From a virus (lineage: Duplodnaviria > Heunggongvirae > Uroviricota > Caudoviricetes): a stretch of DNA of 64,000 nucleotides. This document shows, in pieces, positions 9,501-61,200 of this stretch. Numbering within the stretch: position 1 is the first letter of the stretch; each line of letters begins with the position of its first letter. Location of the stretch: the IMG/VR virus record IMGVR_UViG_3300029846_000001. The stretch is one strand, 5' to 3'. The notes beneath the pieces were generated by a model. The model had not been told where the DNA came from. It ran no database searches and was given only the letters and a program-made list of their open reading frames with translations. The position numbers were made by a program, and so were the translations under genes.

Positions 9501-10153
9501 AAGTTAATAGCATTATGACCGATATGGAATCAAGGTACGGGATAGACACCATCAACCACTCGCATACGACTAAGGCTATAAGGGATCTTAACGGCGTATC
9601 AGGTTATAAAGTAGAATACGGCTTAACCTTTTTAACATACGATCCTTTTATTAGAATATCCAATCCAAGGAAAGAATCTAAGGCCGAGAAAGACGAACCT
9701 CGTATATCCGAAGAACCGCTTACTCACATATCAAGGGTAACAACCCCTTATTTCCTGTACGGCGGTGATGAAGCATATACATCTGTTCCGGCTAAGGTAG
9801 AACCTATACCGGAGAAGATAATGGGTCGTAATGGCATTAAATTTGGTATGAGTGTAGTCGAGTTAACCAAATTAGGGTACAAAAAAGCTGGTGGAAACTG
9901 GATATATAAATTCTATATGAACTCAGGTGTGTATGATTTGTATAATATCAGTACCGGTGAAGCGTTTAGGGCAAAACCGAATCTTGGAGTTAAGATAAGT
10001 TCCAGTGCATTCATCCGCTCTTTATCTCAATCTGGTAGAAAAATACAAAATATGATGAGTAATATGAGCCAGGAAGAGATAGACAGGAATAAGAATCTCG
10101 TAGAAGGTTCTGATAATTCGGATTCGATAAATGAGTTAAATAAAGAGTGTTGA
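3512..10153 (+). CDS. giant hypothetical protein, 2213 aa (virion/ejected or tail protein?)
   Basis: 2213-aa uninterrupted ORF; coiled-coil-rich, acidic Gly/Asp-rich tract (AEEDGDKKGDGKREGQPRDDGKAEGD), Pro/Ala linker (RPAPPAQPAPAAQ); size class typical of phage ejected/tail proteins. Confidence 0.85.
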   Translation: MADNNIDRYNPAAKTTYEDVARQRKLAEEENYTPATLPETTTPLVPNYMPGEGVYAQPKFPDYASRIAAVEYEEPYIAKEISNSYSEALARNSYRGATPAPPPLNPYGPKVSIRESHQMGNDGVWRTKYSNYIPGINNEDYYARRQSGWSKFWNGVGKFALKSALYGAQGVVSLPDKLINMASEGSYKAALNTNMDKFVGDLDQQIDMLLPHYYKKEVEDYNFGQKLFKDTGNFLWNDVLGNGMSFTVGAMISAYMTGGLGVGSLGNIGAKLGGRIGAKLAARQAANRGIGSLKSVFNDYVRKGVATGRNVGEAAKTMTLLATSAGFESSVEANSFMKQSESDFKDYYRKIYGRDPNAEEMAVFRNSNADVGSAIFAANMGIVGLSNWLLFGKYIGLGGKAIPGLEKRLNKHLFGLGTEVAKPGEMAIKITNPNIGQKIAGNVFNIMKRPVSEGLWEEGSQGAVQNTAEEYVKSRYDNVAMNGAVDVLDAISEGFKKQYTSKEGWTEIGIGAIIGSLFGMREGFFGVKEYSNSQILLERQVNEYNKASSNLNTAALNTLKKSMSLGPQVRSDAQSMTGKELDDAMFEKMSIDNQMGTLEDSAENFRQMIDMMPISEIAEANGMSLEEAKKYKDSIIDNYNNRLSDFRSAQSFAEDLIGDDSKIEFRKYVARNAFLGLQSESRMKDIASVIETLSGQPRVADALSTFSRLSDRARERAMAIRGIRSRIEELESEIEDLATRPRNVEGKDPQAESIQRKTKELESLRTNYNNSLSELSTLIGKEFSIEELVSKTESVLSSPLSPISSQDVIEAYDTLVAFDDYFNVKSRQEKKFTAKDKAMRSLVNEYRRSLMDYRNMNNFLSKMLDKRFLAEENRGFSKALSSLWSTPYKGDDKVPDFAESNKVGEYDTDEVVDQAVSEGKISEDEAWTIKAFMHALDKVREDRMKEAEDDIKESPLTESVSDEDYEAAMDNPIMVPAVRQSIIDKLYTGNADLLTEREKDVYDKYKQDFDDYVSSLGDSPVNLIKSLSEKADRLTSPRSVYEDNKAIIDMAKSNLEPDQRKELDDAISSYVDIMNRRDKGEKVDEDKLADSVFTIEDLGQVGNITDLLPYIEQNRIIDKGRISESTLSNFGEDDANIDSLVNELDESDNTPGANIDSAQNPETLMVRRISNDGNERYEIAGLRADKFISSIKSLVPIQISSETNANGTKRYSLNIGGETATIIELPYHARWSIDKESARVLNRYTDVSIQDVGNSYSLVYKRLDSDELVPYRTGVGFGENEVDKIDQEALSSLKKGDKVNLEIDANDTYNQSLFAEYNDAVQSGDKKRIESAENKLVSNMVIKVMSGNRFVSVVKADTGGIDGISKIRRTAFNKWKKDAGRSATINVGTHVVAQTLPGRPVFNMRVNGQGYGQVENLPITEKGAEKVSDVGYVLNGKVVLKNGSKYTGFPFAYSILNDKGNNYKNVRVPVVVIKGKNGLNYLFPVSLRSVESEEGKKWISFIDMLLESGDSELLQMGQDDIQDLNAYLTKLGLDPASYQVSYLNPISGLRKAREAIEKLSTVPDVVKWVEDESRNVKDIVMSEVESGIDFEGEMFVAPKIRIQFGKSSSRPKSLIEDDLPFSDEGKTVTSKEDVDIYEDEMPEEDPVRGTRPAPPAQPAPAAQATQSLHGKKRTSRKNFSLMLNEIESHIEKEGLPSYANIFDFIARKIVGGDLRFLRERGNPKSLKEEMGLEPKGTVGDKISTPSKKGGKTLEEYVSWLRSQTDQVVVDYVGPRSDEQIISELKNFLKYINFVPSKALNYSLRVNGMDALKEYGTKEEVEKMESDINSLVSEVLPTVDNQTVEDVSTAIELNNLPAIWRPMESLDMTNEEKIEFLNNVADFLSGIPEYDAVVESIESESDNILNDGKEGSAEGGAVRAEEDGDKKGDGKREGQPRDDGKAEGDVYLPGSEEGRVDNYKKNGDKFSDIAEVTLWLLRRAAGITSIPEGEEVYVEGDEVNSIMTDMESRYGIDTINHSHTTKAIRDLNGVSGYKVEYGLTFLTYDPFIRISNPRKESKAEKDEPRISEEPLTHISRVTTPYFLYGGDEAYTSVPAKVEPIPEKIMGRNGIKFGMSVVELTKLGYKKAGGNWIYKFYMNSGVYDLYNISTGEAFRAKPNLGVKISSSAFIRSLSQSGRKIQNMMSNMSQEEIDRNKNLVEGSDNSDSINELNKEC

Positions 10154-10155
10154 GT

Positions 10156-10698
10156 ATGAGAAGGAGATACGAAGATGTTTCAGGTCTTGTTCAGTATCAG
10201 TTGAAGACCAATCAGCAGGGGAATATAGAGGTTTATGTTGATGACAGGTTTGTTGGAAACGTAAGTGAAGGAGTCTGCAATTGGAAGGATATTGAATACA
10301 AGAGCAAAGTTACTATATCTTTGAAAGGAGTCGAGGATAAGGCTAAAACTTTAAGTAAAAGAGTCGGTCCCTATTGTCACATTTATAGCATATTTGGAGG
10401 AAATGAATCTTATCATGAAGGTCCGGATAGTAATATAAAAAAGAGTCCGGTTACCACCTTTATAATGTATTGTTATAAAAATGGGGATATTACAACTACC
10501 ACCACTTATACTAAAAATTTATCTGGAACTCTTCAGATAGGTAAAACACAATTGACTATCAATTACAAACAAAGTAAAAGTCAGTCTTTTTCTGGTGGTG
10601 ATAAAGATTATGTAACATCCGTATCTGATTTCCCTTTTGTTACTGGTCCAGGAGATAATAGCGTTGAGTTTGAAGGAGAGGGAAGATTAATAGTTTAA
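10156..10698 (+). CDS. small protein with MRRRY N-terminus (MRRR-leader family member 1)
   Basis: ATG 3 nt after stop of 2213-aa gene; ORF track lists GTG start at 10147; N-terminus MRRRYEDVSG shared with three other genes. Confidence 0.6.
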   Translation: MRRRYEDVSGLVQYQLKTNQQGNIEVYVDDRFVGNVSEGVCNWKDIEYKSKVTISLKGVEDKAKTLSKRVGPYCHIYSIFGGNESYHEGPDSNIKKSPVTTFIMYCYKNGDITTTTTYTKNLSGTLQIGKTQLTINYKQSKSQSFSGGDKDYVTSVSDFPFVTGPGDNSVEFEGEGRLIV

Positions 10699-10774
10699 AC
10701 AAAGGCTTCGCATTATGAAATAGAAGTTTCATAATTTCTATTTTTATAGTATTTTGTCTAAAATATTTATCACT

Positions 10775-10801
10775 ATGGGTGTCAAATGTCAGATAGAAAA
10801 A
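10775..10801 (+). repeat. direct repeat of the first 27 nt of the 752-aa gene (atgggtgtcaaatgtcagatagaaaaa; second copy 11425-11451)
   Basis: Identical 27-mer at 10775 and 11425; at 10775 it is fused to the copy of the 3' end of the 2213-aa gene, a recombination junction. Confidence 0.8.
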
Positions 10802-10802
10802 T

Positions 10803-10866
10803 AAGAATCTCGTAGAAGGTTCTGATAATTCGGATTCGATAAATAAGTTAAACAAGGAGTGTTGAG
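10803..10866 (+). repeat. direct repeat: near-identical copy of the last 64 nt of the 2213-aa gene (10090-10153), preserving the reading frame (NKNLVEGSDNSDSINKLNKEC*) but preceded by TAG
   Basis: aagaatctcgtagaaggttctgataattcggattcgataaat(g/a)agttaaa(t/c)aa(a/g)gagtgttgagtatgagaaggagat present at 10090-10170 and 10800-10880. Confidence 0.85.
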
Positions 10867-10867
10867 T

Positions 10868-11398
10868 ATGAGAAGGAGATTTTTTAATGCTGCGGATAAT
10901 TTTATGGGAGGATGTTATAATAAGTTATCCAATGAAGATATAAAAAGGCTTGGAGGAAAAAGACCTTATGTATGTCAGTTTAATAAAATTCATATACATA
11001 TAGGACCTGTATTAAAAGATCATGATTCTGATGTTAGTTACATAATGTTTAATAGTAATTGGAATCAAGGTGGTTATGAATCTATGGTTTATAATCATAG
11101 CAATAATGGTATTTTTATATTAGGTGAAAACAAAATTGGTAACATAGAAGATCATATACAAGATCTAACATATTGGTACGAATATGATCCAAGCATTAAT
11201 GAAAATTATTGTTATTTTTATTATGAGGCTAATAACAGCGGAAATGCTATCAAGTTGAATGGTGAGTTTGGTGATACCAGTACTGTTTTCAACATTCCCA
11301 GCTTGGAAGTCACCACTCTTCGTGATGGCAGTTTGAGTTTTCCGGAGATTTATATAGAAGGAATTTGGGATCCGTCATTGTATAAGTCGGTTTTATAA
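10868..11398 (+). CDS. small protein with MRRRF N-terminus (MRRR-leader family member 2)
   Basis: ORF (track start 10859 is GTG; ATG at 10868); N-terminus MRRRFFNAAD; preceded by duplicated 3' end of the upstream giant gene, so a tandem paralog or cassette of 10156-10698. Confidence 0.6.
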   Translation: MRRRFFNAADNFMGGCYNKLSNEDIKRLGGKRPYVCQFNKIHIHIGPVLKDHDSDVSYIMFNSNWNQGGYESMVYNHSNNGIFILGENKIGNIEDHIQDLTYWYEYDPSINENYCYFYYEANNSGNAIKLNGEFGDTSTVFNIPSLEVTTLRDGSLSFPEIYIEGIWDPSLYKSVL

Positions 11399-11424
11399 TT
11401 AACTTTGCAAAAAAGTTAATTACA

Positions 11425-13683
11425 ATGGGTGTCAAATGTCAGATAGAAAAAAAGGAAAATGAAATAAAACGGGTTAAGGCTCCTAACGGGGAGCCTTCCG
11501 TTCTTTACGAAAGTGCTTTAAAAGTATTAGGAAACAGCGAGCGGGCCCTTCAGGTATGGGCTAAGGCTTACACTCCTGGTTTTTTGTCGTATTACGGTCA
11601 TTGGAATAACCCGGCTCCAGGGGAGATGTTTAACACCGATCCCAATGGCGAACCTCTTTTAGAAGATGTGCTGTCGTATATGAAGCGTCAGACTTATTTT
11701 GCTGATCCTTTAACGGCTCAGGATGTTAAGGATGTAAGGGATTTCCTTTTGTCTACTCATTATTTTTTCAATGCGTCTTCATTGTCTAATGCTATTCTCT
11801 TCGATTTTTATGTAGATGGCAGTTTGATACTGAATGAGCAGAAATTAAGGAGATCCGGTTTGTATGATGAAACAGAAATAAGTCGTATTTTATCCGATCC
11901 TTCTGTTTTAAACGAGGTTTCGACTTCCATGAGAAAGTTAATAGATTCTTCTATTAACGAACATGATAGGGAAAAGGATAATTATTTTATGTCTGTTGAC
12001 TATCAGTATGGTCCTATTGTTTACAAGGAGGGAGTGTTTAACCAATTTGGTAAAAAAGTACCATATAATCCTTCTGAGCTTTATTGGGCTATGGGCAAAA
12101 CAGTAGCCGGCATAAAAAACTTTTCTGAATTTTCATCTGCTTTTGAATCGTTGAGAAACTCATACCCTGAACTGGTTGAGAAATTCGTTTCTGATAAAGA
12201 ATTTGCCGAATCTATGTTTGATGAGTTCTCATCTACGAATAAGATTCCGGTAATAAACATAGAAGGGGATGATGTGGTAGAAGGCAAGAGAAGATCCTTG
12301 TCTAAGCTACAAGATCTGTCTTATTACAATCCTGGCAAAATAGAGTTCCTAAGAGCTCGTATATCAGCTTATTTACATAGGGCTAATGCCGACACCGAAT
12401 CCGATTTAAGAAGCATGATATGGGATATAGAAGAGGCTTGTACGTGGTTTGGCATAGATATAATAGGGACATCGGAAACTTATGATGGCACAGAAGAATC
12501 TTTGAATAAGATAGATAATTTGATGCTGGATCTTGATATTTATGTGGCCAGGCATAATGATGTAAATTATGCTCCAACGCTGGCATCTTCTATAGATGAT
12601 GTTCTTGGTGATAGTACAGACTATTATTTTGGATTATTGCCGGAGTATATGGATAATTTGAATATCGTTTATTCTGAATCCGATATAGACCCAGTAGAGG
12701 CATTTGAGAAACATTCATTGCTTAAGGTAGGAGATAATCTATATCAAAGGATCAGCAAAGATGATCTTAACGAGATGTATCAAATATCAACAGTATTAGC
12801 CAAGCACAACCTAACTCATTTTTCTACTAAAATATATCCTGAATCTTGTTTTAAGAACGGCGTTTTGGATAAAGAGAAAGTACGGAACGTAGATGATAAT
12901 ACGCTCATGGCTTCCATTAAAAAATACGTCAGATCGTTCATGGATTCTCAGAACACAGAGGACATGATAATGACCAGGATGGCGTTTGGGCACCCTGCGG
13001 TACTTGACGTTCCTTACGTGGATGTGGATCGGGAGTATAGTCGATACATGAACAAAAAACAAGATAGCGAAAACCCATTATCCTTATTCGATTTATACCA
13101 ATCTTACCTTGACAACAAACTCCATAAAACAAAATTATATGATAATGCCTATAAGTATCTTGACTTCAAACCTGGTCCATCTTTGGGTCTTATTTCTGAT
13201 GATCCTGATATTTTGAAATCAATAGAATTATCTTTATCTGGAAAAGACAGGTTGATGTTGTTTGATTATAGCATGACCAGTACCGACCCTTCTTTATCAG
13301 AATTGTTTTATTTGGAGAGGTATGACCCTTCGTATGCTGGGAATGATTTTGAACACTATTTTTACACCAGGCACCCGTATTTGTTAAAAGAAAAATCGGG
13401 TTCTAATATCGTAGAGCAAGATGGTGTTATAACAGCAGAAGGTATTTATGATAATTTTATAAGAGTAGGTAATAAGATATGGTCTAAAGTAAGCGAGAGT
13501 AGTTCCGGCTCTATCTACCAAAATCTGACAGGAACCGAATCGGAGGTGAAATACGATTCTACTCAGAAGGCTAAGACGGTAGAAACTGATTACGCTCCAT
13601 ACCAAAACAGATCTGGCTTGACGCAAGACATGACCGTAAGCAAGTCTGAATTGGATGATCTTAACAAATTGGAATGCAGGTAA
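11425..13683 (+). CDS. hypothetical protein, 752 aa (structural-block protein)
   Basis: 752-aa ORF, co-directional with the giant genes, followed by a hairpin terminator. Confidence 0.75.
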   Translation: MGVKCQIEKKENEIKRVKAPNGEPSVLYESALKVLGNSERALQVWAKAYTPGFLSYYGHWNNPAPGEMFNTDPNGEPLLEDVLSYMKRQTYFADPLTAQDVKDVRDFLLSTHYFFNASSLSNAILFDFYVDGSLILNEQKLRRSGLYDETEISRILSDPSVLNEVSTSMRKLIDSSINEHDREKDNYFMSVDYQYGPIVYKEGVFNQFGKKVPYNPSELYWAMGKTVAGIKNFSEFSSAFESLRNSYPELVEKFVSDKEFAESMFDEFSSTNKIPVINIEGDDVVEGKRRSLSKLQDLSYYNPGKIEFLRARISAYLHRANADTESDLRSMIWDIEEACTWFGIDIIGTSETYDGTEESLNKIDNLMLDLDIYVARHNDVNYAPTLASSIDDVLGDSTDYYFGLLPEYMDNLNIVYSESDIDPVEAFEKHSLLKVGDNLYQRISKDDLNEMYQISTVLAKHNLTHFSTKIYPESCFKNGVLDKEKVRNVDDNTLMASIKKYVRSFMDSQNTEDMIMTRMAFGHPAVLDVPYVDVDREYSRYMNKKQDSENPLSLFDLYQSYLDNKLHKTKLYDNAYKYLDFKPGPSLGLISDDPDILKSIELSLSGKDRLMLFDYSMTSTDPSLSELFYLERYDPSYAGNDFEHYFYTRHPYLLKEKSGSNIVEQDGVITAEGIYDNFIRVGNKIWSKVSESSSGSIYQNLTGTESEVKYDSTQKAKTVETDYAPYQNRSGLTQDMTVSKSELDDLNKLECR

Positions 13684-17142: not shown

Positions 17143-18006
17143 ATGGAATTAAAAGATTTTAAAGATGTGGTTAGAGTAATGACAAAAGAAGAGTTCGAAT
17201 CAACAATCGAAGAAGATATTAAATTCGTTGAGGGATTCAAGAATTTCTTAAAACATGATGATGCCACGAGGATAGTAGAGCATATCAAGTCTGTGTTAGA
17301 AGCATCAGTAGATTATTACTATCCTAATCATCCTGAAGTAGAATTTGAAAAAGATTTTAATATACAATACGATGTCAATAATATCTTGAACAAATACGGC
17401 CACACCGAAATGGGTATGTATAAAATACAGCTCTATATAGAGAATATTTTGGGTAGTATTCAAAACAAGAAGCCTGTAGACGTGGGAGAAGTCTCTGACG
17501 GATACCACACTTTCAATGAATTGTATCGGTATCGCATGTTGTATAACGCTGCCTTCTTTAATCTATTAGCCAGAAACGGACAGGTTGAAGTTTGCAAATC
17601 AAGGAGACACAGCGACGGAGAAAAATGCTTCGGTTCTGATGATTGGTTTATTGTGATGGCGATCCTACCTACCGGTCAGGTATCTAATCACTATGAAAGC
17701 AAATACTGGGATTTGTTTGATGTTCCTGAAAGAGAAACTGCTTTCGAATACGATGGCCATACACCAAATGAAGCTGCCGACAGACTTAAAAAGTATCTCA
17801 AATTGCCTCGTCGTGGCATGACATTCGAACAGGCTTTAGAACGGCTTAAATTAGGTCGTAAGATAAAAAGAATCGATTGGGGTAAAAAGTATATCTGTAT
17901 GTTTGACGTAAATATATTGATGGTAGATACAGGTCAAAAAGTAGCATCAAATTGGAATCCAACCGAACATGATATTATGTCTAATGACTGGGAGATTGCG
18001 GGATGA
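17143..18006 (+). CDS. hypothetical protein, 287 aa
   Basis: ORF; C-terminal W/K-rich segment (MTFEQALERLKLGRKIKRIDWGKKYICMFD...DWEI) of unknown function. Confidence 0.55.
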   Translation: MELKDFKDVVRVMTKEEFESTIEEDIKFVEGFKNFLKHDDATRIVEHIKSVLEASVDYYYPNHPEVEFEKDFNIQYDVNNILNKYGHTEMGMYKIQLYIENILGSIQNKKPVDVGEVSDGYHTFNELYRYRMLYNAAFFNLLARNGQVEVCKSRRHSDGEKCFGSDDWFIVMAILPTGQVSNHYESKYWDLFDVPERETAFEYDGHTPNEAADRLKKYLKLPRRGMTFEQALERLKLGRKIKRIDWGKKYICMFDVNILMVDTGQKVASNWNPTEHDIMSNDWEIAG

Positions 18007-18042
18007 GTTTGTATATCCGAAATAACATTAAAACAATATAAT

Positions 18043-18268
18043 TTTATTATAAGGTTTTAATGTACCATAAATGGTCCGGATATTAGCCTAAGCCTTGAAA
18101 CGAAGGCTACGTTATTTAAGAATAGATAGTTACCTACGGATGTTTACCCAAGTCTGTAGCTCTAAGGTAAGTGATTAAACAGTTCTGGTATTCAGGAACG
18201 GTGTTGCTTACTAAAAACCTTAAATAACATTGGCGATGGGTACTAACAGAGTTTTACTCTGACTTATG
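18043..18268 (+). ncRNA. candidate omega RNA (IscB guide RNA scaffold), copy A, directly upstream of iscB
   Basis: About 225-nt noncoding element ending 30 nt before the iscB ATG; a homologous inverted copy at 47930-48170 shows compensatory base changes (e.g. stem ctacgg/ctgtag versus caagga/ttcttg around the conserved loop atgtttacccaagt); small hairpin accataaatggt at its 5' side. Confidence 0.55.
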
Positions 18269-18297
18269 TTGAATAAACATTAAAAACGTTTGTAGAT

Positions 18298-19518
18298 ATG
18301 GTGTACGTACAAGACATAAATGGTAAACCTTTGATGCCCACAACAAGGCATGGTAAGGTTAGACGACTGCTTAAAGACAAAAAGGCAGTTGTTGTAAACC
18401 TATGTCCGTTTACCATCAAATTAATGTACGTTACATCTGATTACAAACAGGAAATTGTTTTAGGCGTTGATGCTGGAACTAAACATGTTGGTCTATCAGC
18501 AACGACGAAAAGCAAAGAACTTTACAGCAGTGAAGTAATTCTTAGAAATGATATCGTAGATCTTTTGTCTACCAGAAGAGAGCTACGGAAAGCAAGACGG
18601 AACAGGTTAAGATATAGAAAACCTCGTTTTGATAACAGAGTAAAAAGCAAGCGTCTAGGATGGATAGCACCTTCGGTGAAATACAAAGTAGACGCCCATA
18701 TTCGTGTTGTTGAAAATGTTTGCTCTATATTACCAATATCTCGTATTGTTATTGAAGTAGCTCAATTCGATACTCAAAAGATTAAGAATCCTGAGATATC
18801 AGGTAAAGAATACCAGGAAGGTGATCAACTTGAGTTGTGGAACACAAGGGAGTATGTTTTAGCAAGAGATGGACATAAATGCCAGTATTGTAAAGGCAAG
18901 TCAAAAGATTCTATACTGAATGTTCATCATATTGAGTCTCGAAAAACCGGAGGGGATTCCCCTTCTAATCTTATAACTTTATGTGAAACATGTCACAAAG
19001 AATACCATAAAGGTAATATAGATTTAAAGATCAGAAGAGGCAAGTCGCTTCGCGACGCAGCCGTAATGGGAATTATGAAATGGAGGTTGTATGAAGAGTT
19101 AAAATCCAGATACGACAGAGTTTTTATGACGTTTGGTTACATTACGAAACATAATCGGATTAAATATGGGATTGAAAAATCCCATACATCCGACGCGTTT
19201 GTCATTTCTAAGAATATTAATGCGAAACGAATCGAACGTCAATATTTAAAACGTTTAATTCGTAGACATAATAGACAAATACATAAAATGAAAATTTTAA
19301 AAGGGGGGAAGAAGAAAAACAATCAAGCTCCTTTTGAGGTTTTCGGTTTTAGGTTGTTTGATAAAGTGTTGTATAACAATAAAATATTCTTTGTTTATGG
19401 AAGGAGAAAATCAGGGAGTTTCAATATCAGGGATTTCAACGGAGAAAATTCAAAAGATGTTTCACGCAAAAAGTTTAAACTCATTAGAGGGAAGAGGCAT
19501 CCGATTATATTAAAGTAA
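18298..19518 (+). CDS. iscB: IscB, an OMEGA-system RNA-guided nuclease (IS200/IS605-associated Cas9 ancestor), 406 aa
   Basis: PLMP motif (DINGKPLMPTTRHGK); RuvC-I (LGVDAGTKHVGLS); Arg-rich bridge helix (RRELRKARRNRLRYRKPRF); RuvC-II (IVIEVAQFD); HNH (CQYCKG...NVHHIESRKTGGDSPSNLITLCETCHKEYH); RuvC-III (KSHTSDAFVIS). Confidence 0.85.
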   Translation: MVYVQDINGKPLMPTTRHGKVRRLLKDKKAVVVNLCPFTIKLMYVTSDYKQEIVLGVDAGTKHVGLSATTKSKELYSSEVILRNDIVDLLSTRRELRKARRNRLRYRKPRFDNRVKSKRLGWIAPSVKYKVDAHIRVVENVCSILPISRIVIEVAQFDTQKIKNPEISGKEYQEGDQLELWNTREYVLARDGHKCQYCKGKSKDSILNVHHIESRKTGGDSPSNLITLCETCHKEYHKGNIDLKIRRGKSLRDAAVMGIMKWRLYEELKSRYDRVFMTFGYITKHNRIKYGIEKSHTSDAFVISKNINAKRIERQYLKRLIRRHNRQIHKMKILKGGKKKNNQAPFEVFGFRLFDKVLYNNKIFFVYGRRKSGSFNIRDFNGENSKDVSRKKFKLIRGKRHPIILK

Positions 19519-19555
19519 ATGAACGGATTTAATAAATTTAATAGAAAAACGTATC

Positions 19556-37656: not shown

Positions 37657-38012
37657 AAGTCATTGTCTTTAAATCCTTCCGGGTAATATACGACATACTT
37701 CTTACCGTCCTCCGGCGTCATGGCGAACTGCATGTAGTTATTACGATTACGATGCTTGCCATCCAATCCTCGTTTCCAATACAGGATACCGTCTATATCC
37801 ACATAAGACCGTCCGCGTTCGGCTCTAACCACGTCCGTGTGTAGCAGATACCCGTCGGAAGACACGATCCACACTTTATCCCCTTTGTTTAAATAAGATA
37901 TTCTTTTTCTTACAACAACCTTTTTCTTATTATCCAATACAAATTCCTCATCCGTCATATTCTTCATCCTCCTCTTCTTCTGTTTCAAAATCAATTCCAT
38001 AACACTGATCAT
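37653..38012 (-). CDS. hypothetical protein, 119 aa
   Basis: ORF tiled in block. Confidence 0.45.
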   Translation of the reverse strand: MISVMELILKQKKRRMKNMTDEEFVLDNKKKVVVRKRISYLNKGDKVWIVSSDGYLLHTDVVRAERGRSYVDIDGILYWKRGLDGKHRNRNNYMQFAMTPEDGKKYVVYYPEGFKDNDL

Positions 38013-38055
38013 AATGTCCGGTCAGTTCTTCTGGTTCTAAATCTTGTCCAAAATC

Positions 38056-46347: not shown

Positions 46348-47663
46348 ATTACGAATCTTTTAGACATTTCCTCAGCAATATCATATACAACAATATGATC
46401 CTCTTCATTGTATGGCTTATTGATATTCAGCACTCCTTTTCTTACCTTAAACCTCTTATCTTTTCTAAGGTGATTCAACATCCCTTGTTGGAATACACAG
46501 TCTGCCTTCTCCATAGCAGCATTTTTATCAGACCATTCTTTTAGCGTATAACCTTTACTGTTCGTGCTTTTTGGAGAAAAATTCATAATGCGTGCGTCAA
46601 TTCCGTACCAGTTTTTAACCATTCTCCTTTCAGCCTCCAATTGAAAAGCATGTTCATTTCGTATGTCACCCGATTTAAAATCTAAGATAACAATCTCTTC
46701 TTTCTCCACTTCTCTCACTTCCTTCTTCGGATCGCCTTTTTTGAACTGCCCCGTAGCCCTTTGATACACGGCTCCAAAATAACCTTCTTCTTTGTACTTG
46801 AATGTCATTTTAACCATCGCATCTATCGGCGTAGCTACCAAATAATCTTCTAATGATAATATTCTTTCAATCATCATCGGCTTAACCTTATACTCCGAAC
46901 AAAATTTAGCAAACTTCATAACTCTGACAATCATATCGTCAAGATCATCTATGCTACCAAAGAATTTGTCAAGATTCTTTTTTGATATTTTAAGCTTGCC
47001 TTCTTGCACTGTCTTAACTATAAAACTTCGATTTAAGACCATATCTCTACCCGTCAAGTACAATCCGTATAGGTAGTGCATGATCGTTCCTTTATCTGCA
47101 TCATATTCTGATACTTCTTCCGGATTGCGACCAATCATCCTCATCTCCTGTCTCCATTCTTGAAGAGCCGTCTTGTCATCTACGAATCCGTCTCTAATCA
47201 TGGTTGTTACCGAGGCGTATATCTTGGCTGTCCCATCGTCCATCTTTCTTACATAAAAACGATTACCGTCTAATGTCAATCTTACGAATTTGGGAGTCTC
47301 AATCTTCTTTAACTCATCACAGATATAAAACGGCTCTAACGTTTCCTGATTTTCTGTAAACGGATTCGAATCCTCTTCTCCAGGGTTAGAAGCGGCTTCC
47401 TCCGCCGGAGCTTCCGGTTCCTCCTTCTGGGCCTGCTCTGGCTCAGGCGCCGGCTCTTCAACTATTGGAACCTGCCCGCCTCTTTCTGCTATGTCTCTGT
47501 TCTTTATTAAAGACATAACCTCCTTCTTCAACTGCTCTGGTGTTTGATTAGGATTTGACACCGACATCACAACATCGTTCATTCTAAACAACGTATTCCC
47601 TTCTCCTTCCACCATAGGAACAAATCCTAAATCTGTCAATATTTTTATTTTCTGTTCTATCAT
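46344..47663 (-). CDS. hypothetical protein, 439 aa; possible nuclease/recombination protein (weak PD-(D/E)XK-like ILDFKSGD...QLEAER)
   Basis: Large ORF; Pro/Glu-rich acidic linker (PAPEPEQAQKEEPEAPAEEAASNPGEED). Confidence 0.5.
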   Translation of the reverse strand: MIEQKIKILTDLGFVPMVEGEGNTLFRMNDVVMSVSNPNQTPEQLKKEVMSLIKNRDIAERGGQVPIVEEPAPEPEQAQKEEPEAPAEEAASNPGEEDSNPFTENQETLEPFYICDELKKIETPKFVRLTLDGNRFYVRKMDDGTAKIYASVTTMIRDGFVDDKTALQEWRQEMRMIGRNPEEVSEYDADKGTIMHYLYGLYLTGRDMVLNRSFIVKTVQEGKLKISKKNLDKFFGSIDDLDDMIVRVMKFAKFCSEYKVKPMMIERILSLEDYLVATPIDAMVKMTFKYKEEGYFGAVYQRATGQFKKGDPKKEVREVEKEEIVILDFKSGDIRNEHAFQLEAERRMVKNWYGIDARIMNFSPKSTNSKGYTLKEWSDKNAAMEKADCVFQQGMLNHLRKDKRFKVRKGVLNINKPYNEEDHIVVYDIAEEMSKRFVI

Positions 47664-47836
47664 CGCAATTCCCCAATTAATGCTTCTTTAATATAATACA
47701 ATACAGTTTCAGCCTCATCCACATCTGCGGCTGCTCCCTCAAAATCAATTTCTCTCTCACTCTCTCCTCTTTTTACGTTGGCAATGAAAATAATTTCATC
47801 GTCAGCTTCTATTGTAACCTTATATTTTTTTCTCAT
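47660..47836 (-). CDS. small hypothetical protein (about 58 aa), coupled by ATGA overlap to the 439-aa gene
   Basis: Hand-translated MRKKYKVTIEADDEIIFIANVKRGESEREIDFEGAAADVDEAETVLYYIKEALIGELR*; below the ORF-track length cutoff. Confidence 0.3.
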   Translation of the reverse strand: MRKKYKVTIEADDEIIFIANVKRGESEREIDFEGAAADVDEAETVLYYIKEALIGELR

Positions 47837-47929
47837 ATCCCATATTCTATTAAATATATTTAAAGCTATTCATCCGTTTTAATACATCCCCTCGGAGACC
47901 TTTCGGTCTCCTTGGTAGATGTAAATCCC

Positions 47930-48170
47930 GTTAGGGATAAGTCAGGATTTCTCCTGTAAGTACCCATCGCCAATGTTATTTTGAGGTTTTATATAATGGC
48001 AACACTGTTTCGTCAAATACACTACTCCTGTTTAATCACCATTCTTAGAGCAAGAAACTTGGGTAAACATTCCTTGGTAACTATTTATTCTCAAATAACG
48101 TAGCCTTTGTTTCAAGGCTTAGGCTAATAACCCGATCTCTGAAAGAGATGTATTAAACTTTTATAATAGA
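47930..48170 (-). ncRNA. omega-RNA-like structured element, copy B (solo, inverted relative to copy A at 18043-18268)
   Basis: Reverse complement aligns with copy A across about 230 nt with compensatory substitutions in predicted stems; 5' variable hairpin atctctttcagagat; followed (in transcript direction) by the strong hairpin GGAGACC-GAAA-GGTCTCC (plus coords 47893-47910); no nuclease gene adjacent. Confidence 0.5.
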
Positions 48171-48187
48171 ATTATATTAGTTTAATA

Positions 48188-48709
48188 CTATTTGGGGTTA
48201 TATCTGTCAATTATTTCAATAATCAACCTACCTCTTTCTTTAATCATTCCCCTGCTTTCCATATCCAGTACCTTCTTTACCGCATACTTCCACACAAAAG
48301 GAAATTCTGTTTCAAGTTTATCAAATTCCATCCGGTCAAGATACATGTCGAATACCGTATGCTCCGATTCATGAAGGAAAACTATATTATCCCTGCAAGT
48401 AGCAACCGACTTATATATCCTTTTCGGAAGTATGTGACAGACGTTACATACTGTAGGAAAATGAATAGCCTTACCGGTCATAGACATTCGAATAGTACTC
48501 AACTCCTCCAACATAAGACGAAAAAACCCGGATAAATCCGGGTTCTCTAACTTTTTCTTCTTGCTGCTGTTTTTAATGGATGTAATTCTGTCTTTTTTCT
48601 TCGGAGTCAACTCTTTGCTCCTGCAAGCCTGGCATAAGCCATGACTTCTTATCATTACTTTTCGTCCGCATTTTTCGCAGACGTATAGCTTCTTTTCCTT
48701 GCTTTCCAT
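48188..48709 (-). CDS. hypothetical zinc-ribbon protein, 173 aa
   Basis: CEKCGRKV...CQACR N-terminal Cys pairs; basic linker. Confidence 0.5.
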   Translation of the reverse strand: MESKEKKLYVCEKCGRKVMIRSHGLCQACRSKELTPKKKDRITSIKNSSKKKKLENPDLSGFFRLMLEELSTIRMSMTGKAIHFPTVCNVCHILPKRIYKSVATCRDNIVFLHESEHTVFDMYLDRMEFDKLETEFPFVWKYAVKKVLDMESRGMIKERGRLIIEIIDRYNPK

Positions 48710-49365: not shown

Positions 49366-49620
49366 TTAATTAGTTGATTTCTTTCCTTTCTCTATACTAT
49401 TTTTAAATCTTTCAGAACACCACTGCAAAACGTCCATCATCATCATCTCATTGTTGGATAAGATACCTTTTATAATTAACGCCAATTGATGCTGTGACAT
49501 TCTTTGACTCATATCAAATCTTCTTTCCTCTTCATTTACTATCGTAGCCACGAAATACTTACACCCCTCTAAGTGCGTTAGGGCTTCAATCATAGCTTCT
49601 TTTATCTCTTTTTCTTCCAT
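49366..49620 (-). CDS. hypothetical protein, 84 aa
   Basis: ORF tiled in block. Confidence 0.45.
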   Translation of the reverse strand: MEEKEIKEAMIEALTHLEGCKYFVATIVNEEERRFDMSQRMSQHQLALIIKGILSNNEMMMMDVLQWCSERFKNSIEKGKKSTN

Positions 49621-58743: not shown

Positions 58744-58764
58744 AACTCTTTTGTTTTATTGTTT

Positions 58765-60586: not shown

Positions 60587-60685
60587 GTTGGTTATGTTTT
60601 AATTGTTATACATTCCGATTACTACTAATCTATAGAATATAGTTTTCAACTCTCAACCTATTGAATTTTGTAGAATAAACTCACA

Positions 60686-61200
60686 TTATGCTGTTTTAAA
60701 GCACTGTAAGTCTTAATTTTGTAGGAAAACCCTACATAATGCTGTTTTAAAACGCTGATCTGTTGAATTTTGTGGGAAGGGACTATAGAACGCTGTTTTA
60801 AAACGCTGATAGTCTTAATCTTGTTGAATAGTCTTAATTTTGTTGAGCTGATAGTCTTAATTTTGTTGAGAAGGGACTATAGAACGCTGTTTTAAAACGC
60901 TGATAGTCTTAATCTTGTTGAATAGTCTTAATTTTGTTGAGAGGAAGTGCCCTATTTTGTTGAGAAGGGACTATAGAACGCTGTTTTAAAACGCTGATCT
61001 GTTGAATTTTGGGGGAAGGGACTATAGAACGCTGTTTTAAAACGCTGATAGTCTTAATCTTGTTGAATAGTCTTAATTTTGTTGAGAGGAAGTGCCCTAT
61101 TTTGTTGAGAAGGGACTATAGAACGCTGTTTTAAAACGCTGATAGTCTTAATTTTGTTGAGAGGAAGTGCCCTATTTTGTTGAGAGGAAGTGCCCTCCCT
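60686..61200. repeat. complex iteron array: about 7 copies of aagggactatagaacgctgttttaaaacgctgat, about 9 of agtcttaat(c/t)ttgttga(a/g) and 4 of aggaagtgccctattttgttgag (candidate replication origin or regulator-binding array)
   Basis: Seen directly; the core gttttaaaac is a perfect 10-bp palindrome; sits in a 780-bp noncoding gap inside the minus-strand early block. Confidence 0.85.

What the first reader, a model, noticed from the sequence alone, without database searches (positions are those of the whole stretch)
47930..48170. Second, inverted, nuclease-less copy of the omega-RNA-like element 30 kb away, with compensatory covariation
The reverse complement of 47930-48170 aligns with 18043-18268 over about 230 nt. 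Several helices keep pairing through double substitutions (ctacgg/ctgtag becomes caagga/ttcttg around the invariant loop atgtttacccaagt). That is the signature of a structured functional RNA, not a decayed duplicate. Each copy has a different small hairpin at its 5' side: accataaatggt in copy A and atctctttcagagat in copy B. Copy B could be a trans-acting omega RNA with a different guide, giving multiplexed targeting by one IscB. It could instead be a solo IS200/605-type end. As an inverted repeat pair, the two copies could also mediate genome inversion.
Basis: seen in the sequence. Interest (0 to 1): 0.85.

Follow-up and report, generated by a model that had tools for sequence, protein, structure and literature searches.

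The report
Nuclease-less guide-RNA mini-transposon in a crAss-like phage
The second copy is a real 365-base miniature mobile element that carries only the guide-RNA gene of an IscB (Cas9-ancestor) nuclease encoded 30 kb away, a known kind of element here found spreading among gut crAss-like phages.

Summary
Window 48201-47925 (-) and 18013-18280 (+) are two copies of one structured RNA. Both pass the curated Rfam threshold for HEARO (RF02033), the IscB omega RNA (92.3 and 107.7 bits, cut-off 83). Across 56 relatives the helices are 88% paired, against 31-42% in slid controls, and 38 pairs show compensatory changes.

Copy B is not a stray duplicate or a lone transposon end. It is a complete 365-nt IscB-less mini-element (48201-47837): omega-RNA scaffold, a 39-nt hairpin, and about 47 nt homologous to the far end of the full IscB element. 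The related phage crAssE-Sib has the precise empty site. Eighty such mini-elements occur in IMG/VR phage contigs at 8 or more different sites, always directly 5' of an ATG.

The guide would be the flank 48217-48202, which matches the empty site in crAssE-Sib exactly and is followed there by ATG.

Most likely this is a PATE-like non-autonomous IS200/IS605-type element whose omega RNA is used in trans by the IscB at 18298-19518 for homing. Trans use is inferred, not shown. There is no evidence for inversion. The kind is already known; the phage setting and the ATG target preference are new details.

The parts
47837..48201 (-). Complete IscB-less mini-element (copy B), 365 nt: ATAACCCC...GGGAT
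   Evidence: It is absent from the precise empty site in crAssE-Sib (GACAGAT|ATGAGAAAA). The same element, 357-369 nt, occurs 80 times at 8 or more other sites.
47925..48201 (-). Omega-RNA (HEARO) scaffold of copy B, from the first helix to the last 3' hairpin ATCCCTAACGGGAT (47938-47925)
   Evidence: Rfam RF02033 scores 92.3 bits on 48201-47956 against a gathering score of 83. Helices are supported by covariation in 56 relatives. The two 3' hairpins lie outside the Rfam model and covary.
48202..48217 (-). Putative 16-nt guide of copy B (GAAATAATTGACAGAT), the last codons of the ninG-like gene 48188-48709
   Evidence: It lies immediately 5' of the scaffold, outside the element boundary. It is identical in the empty site of crAssE-Sib and is followed there by ATGAGA. 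It occurs once in the window. The 16-nt length is assumed by analogy with OgeuIscB.
47884..47922 (-). 39-nt hairpin ACATCTACC AA GGAGACC GAAA GGTCTCC GA GGGGATGT, specific to the IscB-less elements
   Evidence: It is predicted in the minimum-energy fold. Divergent solo subfamilies keep the hairpin with different sequences, seen by eye in L043 and L013 and not formally counted. It has no T-run, so the terminator scan does not call it.
47837..47883 (-). Far end of the mini-element, homologous to the end of the full element downstream of iscB (19519-19555). This is the transposon left end in IS200/IS605 terms.
   Evidence: Shared AACGGAT...ATTTAATAGAA... directly before ATG in both copies.
47834..47836 (-). 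ATG directly after the element: candidate target-adjacent motif and start codon of the 58-aa gene 47660-47836
   Evidence: Nearly all right flanks of solo and IscB-linked copies at about 30 distinct sites begin with ATG. The exceptions are L025/L082 (ATA) and one uncertain call, L216. The ATG is present once in the empty sites.
18013..19555 (+). Full IscB element (copy A): omega scaffold 18013-18280, iscB 18298-19518, far end 19519-19555, followed by ATG 19556
   Evidence: Rfam HEARO scores 107.7 bits. The ORF has Pfam RRXRR (4.8e-61) and HNH (4.7e-11) domains and matches OgeuIscB in the PDB at E = 2.6e-42. The element is absent from crAssE-Sib.
17997..18012 (+). Putative guide of copy A (TGCGGGATGAGTTTGT)
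   Evidence: Flank 5' of the first helix. The left junction at this site differs among relatives.
37995..38016 (-). Empty 'site 2' in the window (...GATCAGTGTT|ATGGAATTG, junction 38001|38000). Thirty-seven of the 80 mini-elements in related phages sit at this right flank, 27 of them at exactly this left junction.
   Evidence: The flanks of the filled sites are contiguous here with no duplicated or missing base.

Best explanation
Copy B is a miniature, non-autonomous IS200/IS605-type element (PATE-like) that has lost iscB but keeps the full omega-RNA gene and both element ends.

What is shown:
- It is inserted, without target duplication, between the ninG-like gene and the ATG of the next gene of an epsilon crAss-like phage.
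- It is co-oriented with both genes.

What is inferred, step by step:
1. Read-through transcription of the operon yields an RNA whose 5' part (about 16 nt, 48217-48202) is flank-derived guide and whose remainder is the IscB-binding scaffold.
2. The IscB made from 18298-19518 binds this second omega RNA in trans.
3. The complex cuts any co-infecting relative, or any excised copy, that carries the uninterrupted sequence GAAATAATTGACAGAT followed by ATG.
4. Repair from the element-bearing genome copies the mini-element back in. [quoted passage not shown]

Movement to new ATG-adjacent sites would need a Y1 TnpA supplied from elsewhere, and that transposase has not been found.
For: Identity as an omega RNA:
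- Rfam HEARO scores above the gathering threshold for both copies.
- In 56 relatives, 88% of cells are paired against 31-42% in slid controls, 38 pairs carry compensatory changes, and 0 of 500 shuffles reach the observed values on four of the five measures; the fifth, further pair types, was reached by 27 of 500.

Identity as a mobile element:
- crAssE-Sib has the exact empty site.
- The window itself has an exact empty 'site 2' that is filled in 27 relatives (37 copies share its right flank).
- The solo-specific motif gives 80 copies of 357-369 nt at 8 or more different right flanks.
- The far end is homologous to that of the full element.

Architecture matches published IscB elements. The scaffold is bounded by the transposon end, the guide is 5'-adjacent and outside the element, and transcription comes from the upstream gene in the same orientation (Meers et al. 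preprint). The same paper notes that PATEs often encode omega RNAs that must be used in trans.

Compatibility with the resident IscB:
- The B scaffold core is 91-92% identical to scaffolds linked to IscBs that are 87-94% identical to the window IscB.
- The IscB has RRXRR and HNH domains, and its RuvC and HNH motifs align with those of OgeuIscB.

Target logic: the guide plus ATG is present intact in crAssE-Sib.

Structure is kept in solo copies, including divergent solo subfamilies that carry their own compensatory changes.

At least 34 of 72 solo-bearing contigs also carry an IscB locus in an incomplete sample.
Against: - There is no expression, binding or cleavage data.
- Helix variants are shared between solo and IscB-linked copies. 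Structure in solo copies could therefore be maintained by gene conversion or recent origin rather than by selection on solo copies.
- Solo copies score slightly lower on pairing than linked copies (90% against 98% of core cells). Most of the difference comes from alignment offsets or from variants also seen next to IscB.
- No Y1 TnpA was found in the window or in the roughly 200 related loci held at that point, so the transposition step has no identified enzyme.
- For 38 of 72 solo contigs I could not establish whether an IscB is present.
- The ATG preference could partly reflect survivorship in a gene-dense genome rather than enzyme specificity.
- The 16-nt guide length is assumed by analogy.
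Confidence: 0.6

Rival explanations
1. The mini-element is mobile but its RNA is inert. It is mobilised in trans by a transposase and keeps the omega region only because that region overlaps the transposon end, or because it derives recently and repeatedly from full elements. IscB does not use it.
For: - Helix variants in solo copies are the same ones seen in IscB-linked copies, which is consistent with gene conversion or recent derivation.
- Solo copies pair slightly worse than linked copies.
- There are no functional data.
Against: - TnpA of IS200/IS605 elements recognises short subterminal hairpins (established knowledge; Meers et al.). It does not need a 277-nt scaffold, yet all 80 copies keep the whole scaffold at nearly constant length.
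- Divergent solo subfamilies (L013/L027, L037, L043/L113) keep the helices through their own compensatory changes.
- One variant (L038) has lost most of the far end but keeps the scaffold.
Confidence: 0.25
2. Copy B is a dead relic. An IscB element at this site lost its ORF by deletion, and the remnant is inherited vertically with no activity of any kind.
For: The architecture is that of an internal deletion: scaffold plus far end. One intermediate exists, L104, in which the scaffold is fused to the middle of iscB.
Against: - The same deletion derivative, with the same extra hairpin and ends, sits at 8 or more unrelated sites. It therefore spread after the deletion.
- Empty sites are precise.
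- No full-length IscB element was seen at site 1 in any relative.
Confidence: 0.07
3. The phage has domesticated the cassette as a cis-regulatory module for the downstream gene, for example a structured leader, a terminator or attenuator hairpin, and a new translation-initiation region. IscB plays no part.
For: Every copy sits exactly at the ATG of a co-oriented gene and supplies its upstream region. Solo copies carry a strong conserved hairpin before the far end.
Against: - Relatives function without the cassette at the same genes.
- Full IscB elements show the same ATG adjacency, so the position is explained by the element's target preference.
- Regulation does not require a complete HEARO fold.
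Confidence: 0.05
4. The two inverted copies act mainly as recombination substrates that invert the 30-kb segment between them.
For: The two copies are about 230 nt of 80-87% identical inverted sequence. One relative (L071) has chimeric flanks, which suggests recombination between solo copies at different sites.
Against: - The window is collinear with crAssE-Sib, which lacks both copies.
- Another contig with both copies has the same orientation and a 29.6-kb spacing.
- No chimeric junction, either A-left joined to a solo tail or ninG-left joined to IscB, appears among about 280 copies.
Confidence: 0.03

Closest known systems
HEARO RNA (Rfam RF02033), the omega RNA of IscB (OMEGA systems)
   Same: - Sequence and structure match above the curated threshold.
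- It has the same helices and the same pseudoknot-forming segments.
- The scaffold starts at the element boundary with the flank as 5' guide.
- It lies in the same orientation as the upstream gene.
   Different: No iscB follows copy B; the nearest iscB is 30 kb away on the other strand. Two extra 3' hairpins and, in solo copies, a further 39-nt hairpin lie outside the Rfam model.
PATEs (palindrome-associated transposable elements): protein-less derivatives of IS200/IS605 elements that still encode omega RNAs (Meers et al. preprint 10.1101/2023.03.14.532601)
   Same: - Both are short and carry no protein-coding gene.
- Both keep the two ends of the parent element and carry the guide-RNA gene.
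- Both are presumed to depend on a nuclease and a transposase encoded elsewhere.
   Different: - This one is of the IscB type, with the guide at the 5' side and the scaffold at the transposon right end.
- It resides in a virus rather than a bacterial chromosome.
- Its target-adjacent motif is ATG at gene starts.
- No cognate TnpA is known.
Free-standing homing endonucleases of T-even phages (Seg, Mob) and marker exclusion
   Same: The predicted outcome is the same: a phage-encoded nuclease cuts the allele of a co-infecting relative that lacks the insertion, and repair copies the insertion and its flanks.
   Different: Recognition is by RNA guide rather than by protein. One nuclease could serve several dispersed insertion sites through separate guide-RNA elements.
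CRISPR-Cas9 with tracrRNA and crRNA array
   Same: Both use a Cas9-family nuclease fold, guides encoded apart from the nuclease gene, and several guides per nuclease.
   Different: There is no repeat-spacer array, no adaptation genes and no separate tracrRNA. Each guide is fixed by the insertion site of its own mobile element.

Membership tests
HEARO / IscB omega RNA (Rfam RF02033) | Covariance-model score at or above the curated gathering threshold | tested here: met
   Copy B scores 92.3 bits and copy A 107.7 bits against a threshold of 83. Both are full-length matches to model positions 1-211.
HEARO / IscB omega RNA (Rfam RF02033) | Consensus helices maintained by compensatory substitutions | tested here: met
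   In 56 relatives, 88% of cells are paired against 31-42% in slid controls. Thirty-eight pairs and 331 cells have changes on both sides, and 0 of 500 shuffles reach the observed values on four of the five measures; the fifth, further pair types, was reached by 27 of 500.
HEARO / IscB omega RNA (Rfam RF02033) | Located directly upstream of, and co-oriented with, an iscB (HNH) ORF | tested here: not met
   This is met for copy A (iscB starts 17 nt after the scaffold). It is not met for copy B, which is followed by a hairpin, the element end and a 58-aa phage gene. This feature describes the usual context of the RNA, not its fold.
HEARO / IscB omega RNA (Rfam RF02033) | Scaffold 5' end coincides with the element boundary, with a flank-derived guide 5' of it | tested here: met
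   Homology to the crAssE-Sib empty site stops at the first helix. The left flanks differ at each insertion site while the scaffold start ATAACCCC is constant.
HEARO / IscB omega RNA (Rfam RF02033) | Transcribed, bound by IscB, and directs DNA cleavage | not testable with these tools
   No transcriptome or biochemical data are available.
IS200/IS605-type non-autonomous element (PATE-like) | Precise insertion without target-site duplication | tested here: met
   At site 2 the flanks are contiguous in the window with no duplicated or missing base. At site 1 the junction is consistent with no duplication; the 5-nt ambiguity GATAT arises from chance identity between element ends and flanks.
IS200/IS605-type non-autonomous element (PATE-like) | Conserved short target-adjacent motif next to one end only | tested here: met
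   ATG follows the far end at about 30 distinct sites for solo and full elements. The fourth base is A, G or T in my hand tally of about 24 linked sites. The other flank shows no conserved motif.
IS200/IS605-type non-autonomous element (PATE-like) | Subterminal hairpins at both ends that TnpA recognises | tested here: inconclusive
   Hairpins exist near both ends. Which ones, if any, are TnpA sites cannot be told without a cognate TnpA.
IS200/IS605-type non-autonomous element (PATE-like) | Mobilised by a Y1 (HUH) TnpA transposase | tested here: inconclusive
   No Y1_Tnp homolog was found in the window or in the roughly 200 related loci held at that point, using a Pfam-verified IS200 TnpA query. 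A scan of bacterial genomes found only two real copies of the family. TnpA may be host-encoded and divergent. According to Meers et al., only about 1.5% of iscB genes are associated with tnpA.
IS200/IS605-type non-autonomous element (PATE-like) | No protein-coding capacity | tested here: met
   The only ORF inside the element is a 40-aa TTG-started ORF on the opposite strand (47981-48103).
CRISPR array / tracrRNA | Direct repeats separated by spacers near the RNA | tested here: not met
   The repeat search finds no array at either locus.
Invertible DNA segment | Both orientations of the segment between the inverted repeats occur in related genomes | tested here: not met
   The window is collinear with crAssE-Sib and with contig _128407. 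No chimeric junctions were found.

The most novel reading that the evidence does not exclude
Epsilon crAss-like phages run a distributed, naturally multiplexed RNA-guided gene drive. A single IscB serves its own omega RNA plus one or more dispersed 365-nt omega-only mini-transposons. Each mini-transposon is parked exactly at the ATG of a phage gene, and each one programs cleavage of the corresponding uninterrupted allele in competing phages. Guide modules have separated physically from the nuclease gene and multiply on their own. This would be a living intermediate between 'one transposon, one guide' OMEGA elements and CRISPR-like systems with many guides per nuclease.
Probability: 0.4. Interest if true: 0.7.

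Novelty: new member of a known kind. Interest (0 to 1): 0.55.

Why it matters
If the trans use is real, one compact IscB in a phage is naturally reprogrammed by several independent guide-RNA elements. That would give a natural case of multiplexed IscB targeting and of RNA-guided homing between viruses.

It also supplies testable material:
- defined guide and target pairs with natural empty alleles (site 1 in crAssE-Sib, site 2 in this window);
- a simple candidate target-adjacent motif (ATG) for a 406-aa IscB;
- about 280 natural scaffold variants.

For annotation, it shows that HEARO hits without an adjacent HNH gene in phage genomes are mini-transposons, not decayed duplicates.

Tried and rejected
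- **RNAalifold consensus.** It gave only a partial and partly wrong structure, with a long 133-183 helix that disagrees with Rfam. I replaced it with a structure built from the Rfam alignment plus hand-checked helices.
- **Rfam placement of the first helix in copy A.** The AUAAUUUU pairing is poor. The real first helix is ATATCCG/CGGATAT at the element boundary.
- **Column-based counting of the small 5' hairpin.** This was dropped because MAFFT puts the A and B versions out of register.
- **Bacterial genome scan with the invariant 18-mer.** Of 11 hits, about as many as chance predicts for an 18-mer in 596 Gb, only two are real elements. This gave no host or TnpA lead beyond a Phocaeicola MAG contig.
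- **TnpA search.** Negative.
- **Sigma-70 promoter and terminator scan.** Uninformative. The only 'terminator' called is helix P2 of the scaffold, and the host is probably Bacteroidales, whose promoters the scan does not cover.
- **Literature.** No held paper links IscB to crAss-like phages. The original HEARO paper is not held. I recall that standalone omega RNAs were mentioned in Altae-Tran et al. 2021 but could not verify this.
- **Repeats carrying GGAATCGAACC at 58750, 59998 and 62306.** I suspected tRNA genes, but ARAGORN finds none in the window.
- **Source contig.** I first took contig _113417 (IscB 100% identical) as the source of the window. It carries its solo copy at site 2, not site 1, so it is a close relative and not the source.

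Full report

Yes. The reverse complement of the flagged stretch aligns with the region upstream of the ORF at 18298-19518. The repeat finder reports two inverted arms of 108 nt (86%) and 38 nt (87%).

A scan of the whole window against Rfam finds exactly two matches above any family's gathering score. Both are HEARO (RF02033):
- 18038-18247 (+): 107.7 bits
- 48201-47956 (-): 92.3 bits, against a threshold of 83

HEARO is the RNA now known as the omega RNA of IscB. The ORF after copy A is a 406-aa IscB. It has Pfam RRXRR (4.8e-61) and HNH (4.7e-11) domains. It matches the solved OgeuIscB structures at E = 2.6e-42, with the N-terminal PLMP segment, the RuvC-I aspartate motif, the HNH motif and RuvC-III all aligned.

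**2. True extent of the copies.**

At the 5' side each begins with a 7-bp helix that closes the 5' domain. In A this is ATATCCG (18013-18019) paired with CGGATAT. In B it is ATAACCC (48201-48195) paired with GGGTTAT. The two versions differ by compensatory changes.

At the 3' side two further hairpins follow the Rfam model, and both covary. The first is CAGAG/CTCTG in A against CAGGA/TCCTG in B. The second is ATGTT/AACAT in A against ATCCC/GGGAT in B.

**3. Covariation in the wider family.**

I collected relatives from IMG/VR with an invariant 18-mer and with the IscB protein. This gave 201 omega-RNA places, of which 164 are followed by IscB and about 30 are not.

I took 56 non-redundant sequences and a structure built from the Rfam alignment plus the extra helices:

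| Measure | Observed | Control |
|---|---|---|
| Cells forming standard pairs | 88% | 31-42% when 3' partners are slid by 1-3 columns |
| Pairs with changes on both sides | 38 of 73 | 24.7 mean in shuffles |
| Cells with changes on both sides | 331 | 95.7 mean in shuffles |
| Shuffles reaching the observed values | 0 of 500 on four of five measures (27 of 500 for further pair types) | |

The structured-RNA claim is secure.

There is one logical caveat. Every helix variant seen in copy B also occurs in IscB-linked copies elsewhere. Covariation between the two window copies therefore does not prove that copy B is under selection as a solo copy.

**4. What copy B is.**

The nearest deposited genome is phage crAssE-Sib (OR575929, 151 kb, 88% identical here). 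It is an epsilon crAss-like phage (PMC11054128). It has no IscB of this family.

At the copy-B locus its ninG gene overlaps the next gene...ATTGACAGAT|ATGAGAAAA. The window has 365 extra bases exactly there. The element is 48201-47837, and it consists of:
- the omega scaffold, 48201-47925;
- a 39-nt GC-rich hairpin, 47922-47884;
- about 47 nt, 47883-47837, homologous to the sequence between the iscB stop codon and the end of the full element at 19519-19555.

Copy B is therefore an internal-deletion derivative that keeps both element ends. It is not a solo end.

Among the related contigs the same derivative sits at many different places. A motif specific to it retrieves 77 stretches from IMG/VR. 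With the window this makes 80 copies of 357-369 nt at 8 or more distinct right flanks. More divergent IscB-less subfamilies have the same architecture at further sites.

The window itself contains one of those sites in the empty state. At 38001|38000 (-) the flanks of 27 filled copies are contiguous, with no base duplicated or lost. So the mini-element moved as such, by a mechanism that makes no target duplication. That is the hallmark of IS200/IS605 elements.

**5. Guide and target.**

Meers et al. describe IscB omega RNAs as follows: the scaffold derives from the transposon right end, the guide is 5'-adjacent and lies outside the element, and transcription has to come from upstream, which fits a bias for co-oriented upstream genes. 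Copy B matches this description.

- The scaffold starts at the boundary.
- Both neighbouring genes are co-oriented with it.
- The 16 nt before it (GAAATAATTGACAGAT, 48217-48202) are phage sequence that occurs once in the window.

They are scaffold.

Across about 30 distinct insertion sites of solo and full elements, the base triplet directly after the far end is ATG. It is usually the start codon of a co-oriented gene. The ATG is present once in the empty sites. I therefore read ATG as the target-adjacent motif, lying 3' of the protospacer as expected for IscB. Selection against gene disruption in a dense genome may contribute to this pattern.

In crAssE-Sib the copy-B guide sequence is intact and followed by ATGAGA. 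The window phage thus carries a guide that matches a real relative's empty allele. In the other direction, the window's empty site 2 matches the guide of the site-2 mini-elements carried by relatives.

**6. Can the resident IscB use it?**

This step is inferred. The evidence in favour:
- The core of the B scaffold is only 81% identical to the A scaffold. It is 91-92% identical to scaffolds sitting directly upstream of IscBs that are 87-94% identical to the window IscB. It falls within the range these proteins already use.
- Solo copies keep the core helices: 90% of cells paired against 98% for linked copies. Most of the difference comes from alignment offsets or from variants also seen next to IscB.
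- Divergent solo subfamilies have their own compensatory changes.
- At least 34 of 72 solo-bearing contigs also carry an IscB locus in my incomplete sample of partly fragmentary contigs.

The evidence against, or missing:
- There are no expression or biochemical data.
- Gene conversion from linked copies could maintain the structure.
- No Y1 TnpA was found in the window or in the roughly 200 related loci held at that point.
- The family is nearly absent from 185,579 bacterial and archaeal reference genomes. The transposase responsible for new insertions is unknown.

**7. Inversion.**

The window is collinear with crAssE-Sib across both loci. Another contig with both copies has the same orientation and a 29.6-kb spacing. 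No junction of the type an inversion would create was seen among about 280 copies. One contig (L071) does combine the left flank of one solo site with the right flank of another, which hints at recombination between co-oriented solo copies.

**8. Comparison with what is known, and verdict.**

The RNA is a member of HEARO / IscB omega RNA. The element is of the PATE type: protein-less IS200/IS605 derivatives that still encode omega RNAs and need a nuclease in trans. That concept is stated explicitly by Meers et al.. Homing into co-infecting phages is discussed as 'non-restorative transposon homing' in a 2026 review (PMC13565253).

I found no held paper linking IscB to crAss-like phages. The crAssE-Sib paper mentions only TnpB genes.

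New here are the viral setting, the scale of spread of a 365-nt IscB-type guide-only element, the ATG adjacency, and the natural guide and empty-site pairs.

- Interest: 0.55.
- Confidence that copy B is a HEARO-bearing mini-transposon: above 0.9.
- Confidence that it is used in trans by the window's IscB: about 0.55-0.6.

Noticed in passing
window 17143-18012 and loci L124-L142 (left junction of the full IscB element): The far (ATG) side of the element is constant, but the guide-side junction differs among relatives. At the copy-A site at least eight different left junctions cut progressively deeper into the upstream genes, while the right flank stays ATGTATAATAAAG. The solo elements show the same pattern: five left junctions at site 2, and two each at sites 3 and 7. 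This could reflect repeated adjacent deletions, perhaps from self-cleavage at a near-cognate ATA next to the guide match. It remains unexplained.
   Followed up: partly
window 17997-18012 compared with L002 2547-2822 (crAssE-Sib): In crAssE-Sib a 91-aa gene occupies the place of the IscB element. The window keeps only the first 10 nt of that gene. The present guide of copy A (TGCGGGATGAGTTTGT followed by ATG) therefore has no matching empty allele in crAssE-Sib, whereas the guide of the nuclease-less copy B does.
   Followed up: partly
window 17143-18006 (+): The gene directly upstream of the IscB element has a WDGH domain (1.3e-36) and a Tad2-like domain (Thoeris anti-defence 2, 6.4e-11). Several relatives have lost part or all of it through the junction deletions described above.
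   Followed up: no
window 37995-38016 (-): This is an unoccupied insertion site (GATCAGTGTT|ATGGAATTG). In 27 related contigs it is filled by the same mini-element. The window phage would be a target for those relatives.
   Followed up: yes
window 49437-49447 (-), inside ORF 49366-49620; locus L084: In L084 the mini-element sits inside the homolog of this 84-aa gene, just before an internal run of ATG codons (MMMM in the window). ATG adjacency is therefore not limited to true start codons.
   Followed up: partly
L071 (with L116 and L084): The solo copy in L071 has the left flank of one insertion site and the right flank of another. This suggests a deletion or rearrangement by recombination between two co-oriented mini-elements.
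   Followed up: partly
L104 2216-2388; L038 405-691; L025 and L082: Three kinds of variant were seen. In L104 the scaffold is fused directly to the middle of iscB, an intermediate deletion. In L038 a solo copy has lost most of its far end (335 nt). In L025 and L082 the flanking ATG of a full element reads ATA.
   Followed up: no
window 60664-61185: A dense block of direct repeats (units of about 51 and 94-145 nt containing AATTTTGT...GCTGTTTTAAA and ATAGTCTTAATTTTGTTGAGA). Its function is unknown; it could be an origin-like or promoter-array region.
   Followed up: no
window 10088-10168 / 10800-10880 and 10741-10807 / 11391-11457: Two pairs of direct repeats, 81 nt at 96% identity and 67 nt at 76%, spaced about 650-710 nt apart. 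They suggest a local tandem duplication of a small gene cassette.
   Followed up: no
L204 (contig labelled Vibrio olivae) and L206 (Candidatus Phocaeicola faecipullorum MAG): These are the only two real copies of this IscB and omega-RNA family among 185,579 reference genomes. The Vibrio label on a 20-kb contig carrying an 86%-identical IscB looks like contamination or a phage contig. The Phocaeicola MAG contig fits a Bacteroidales host.
   Followed up: no
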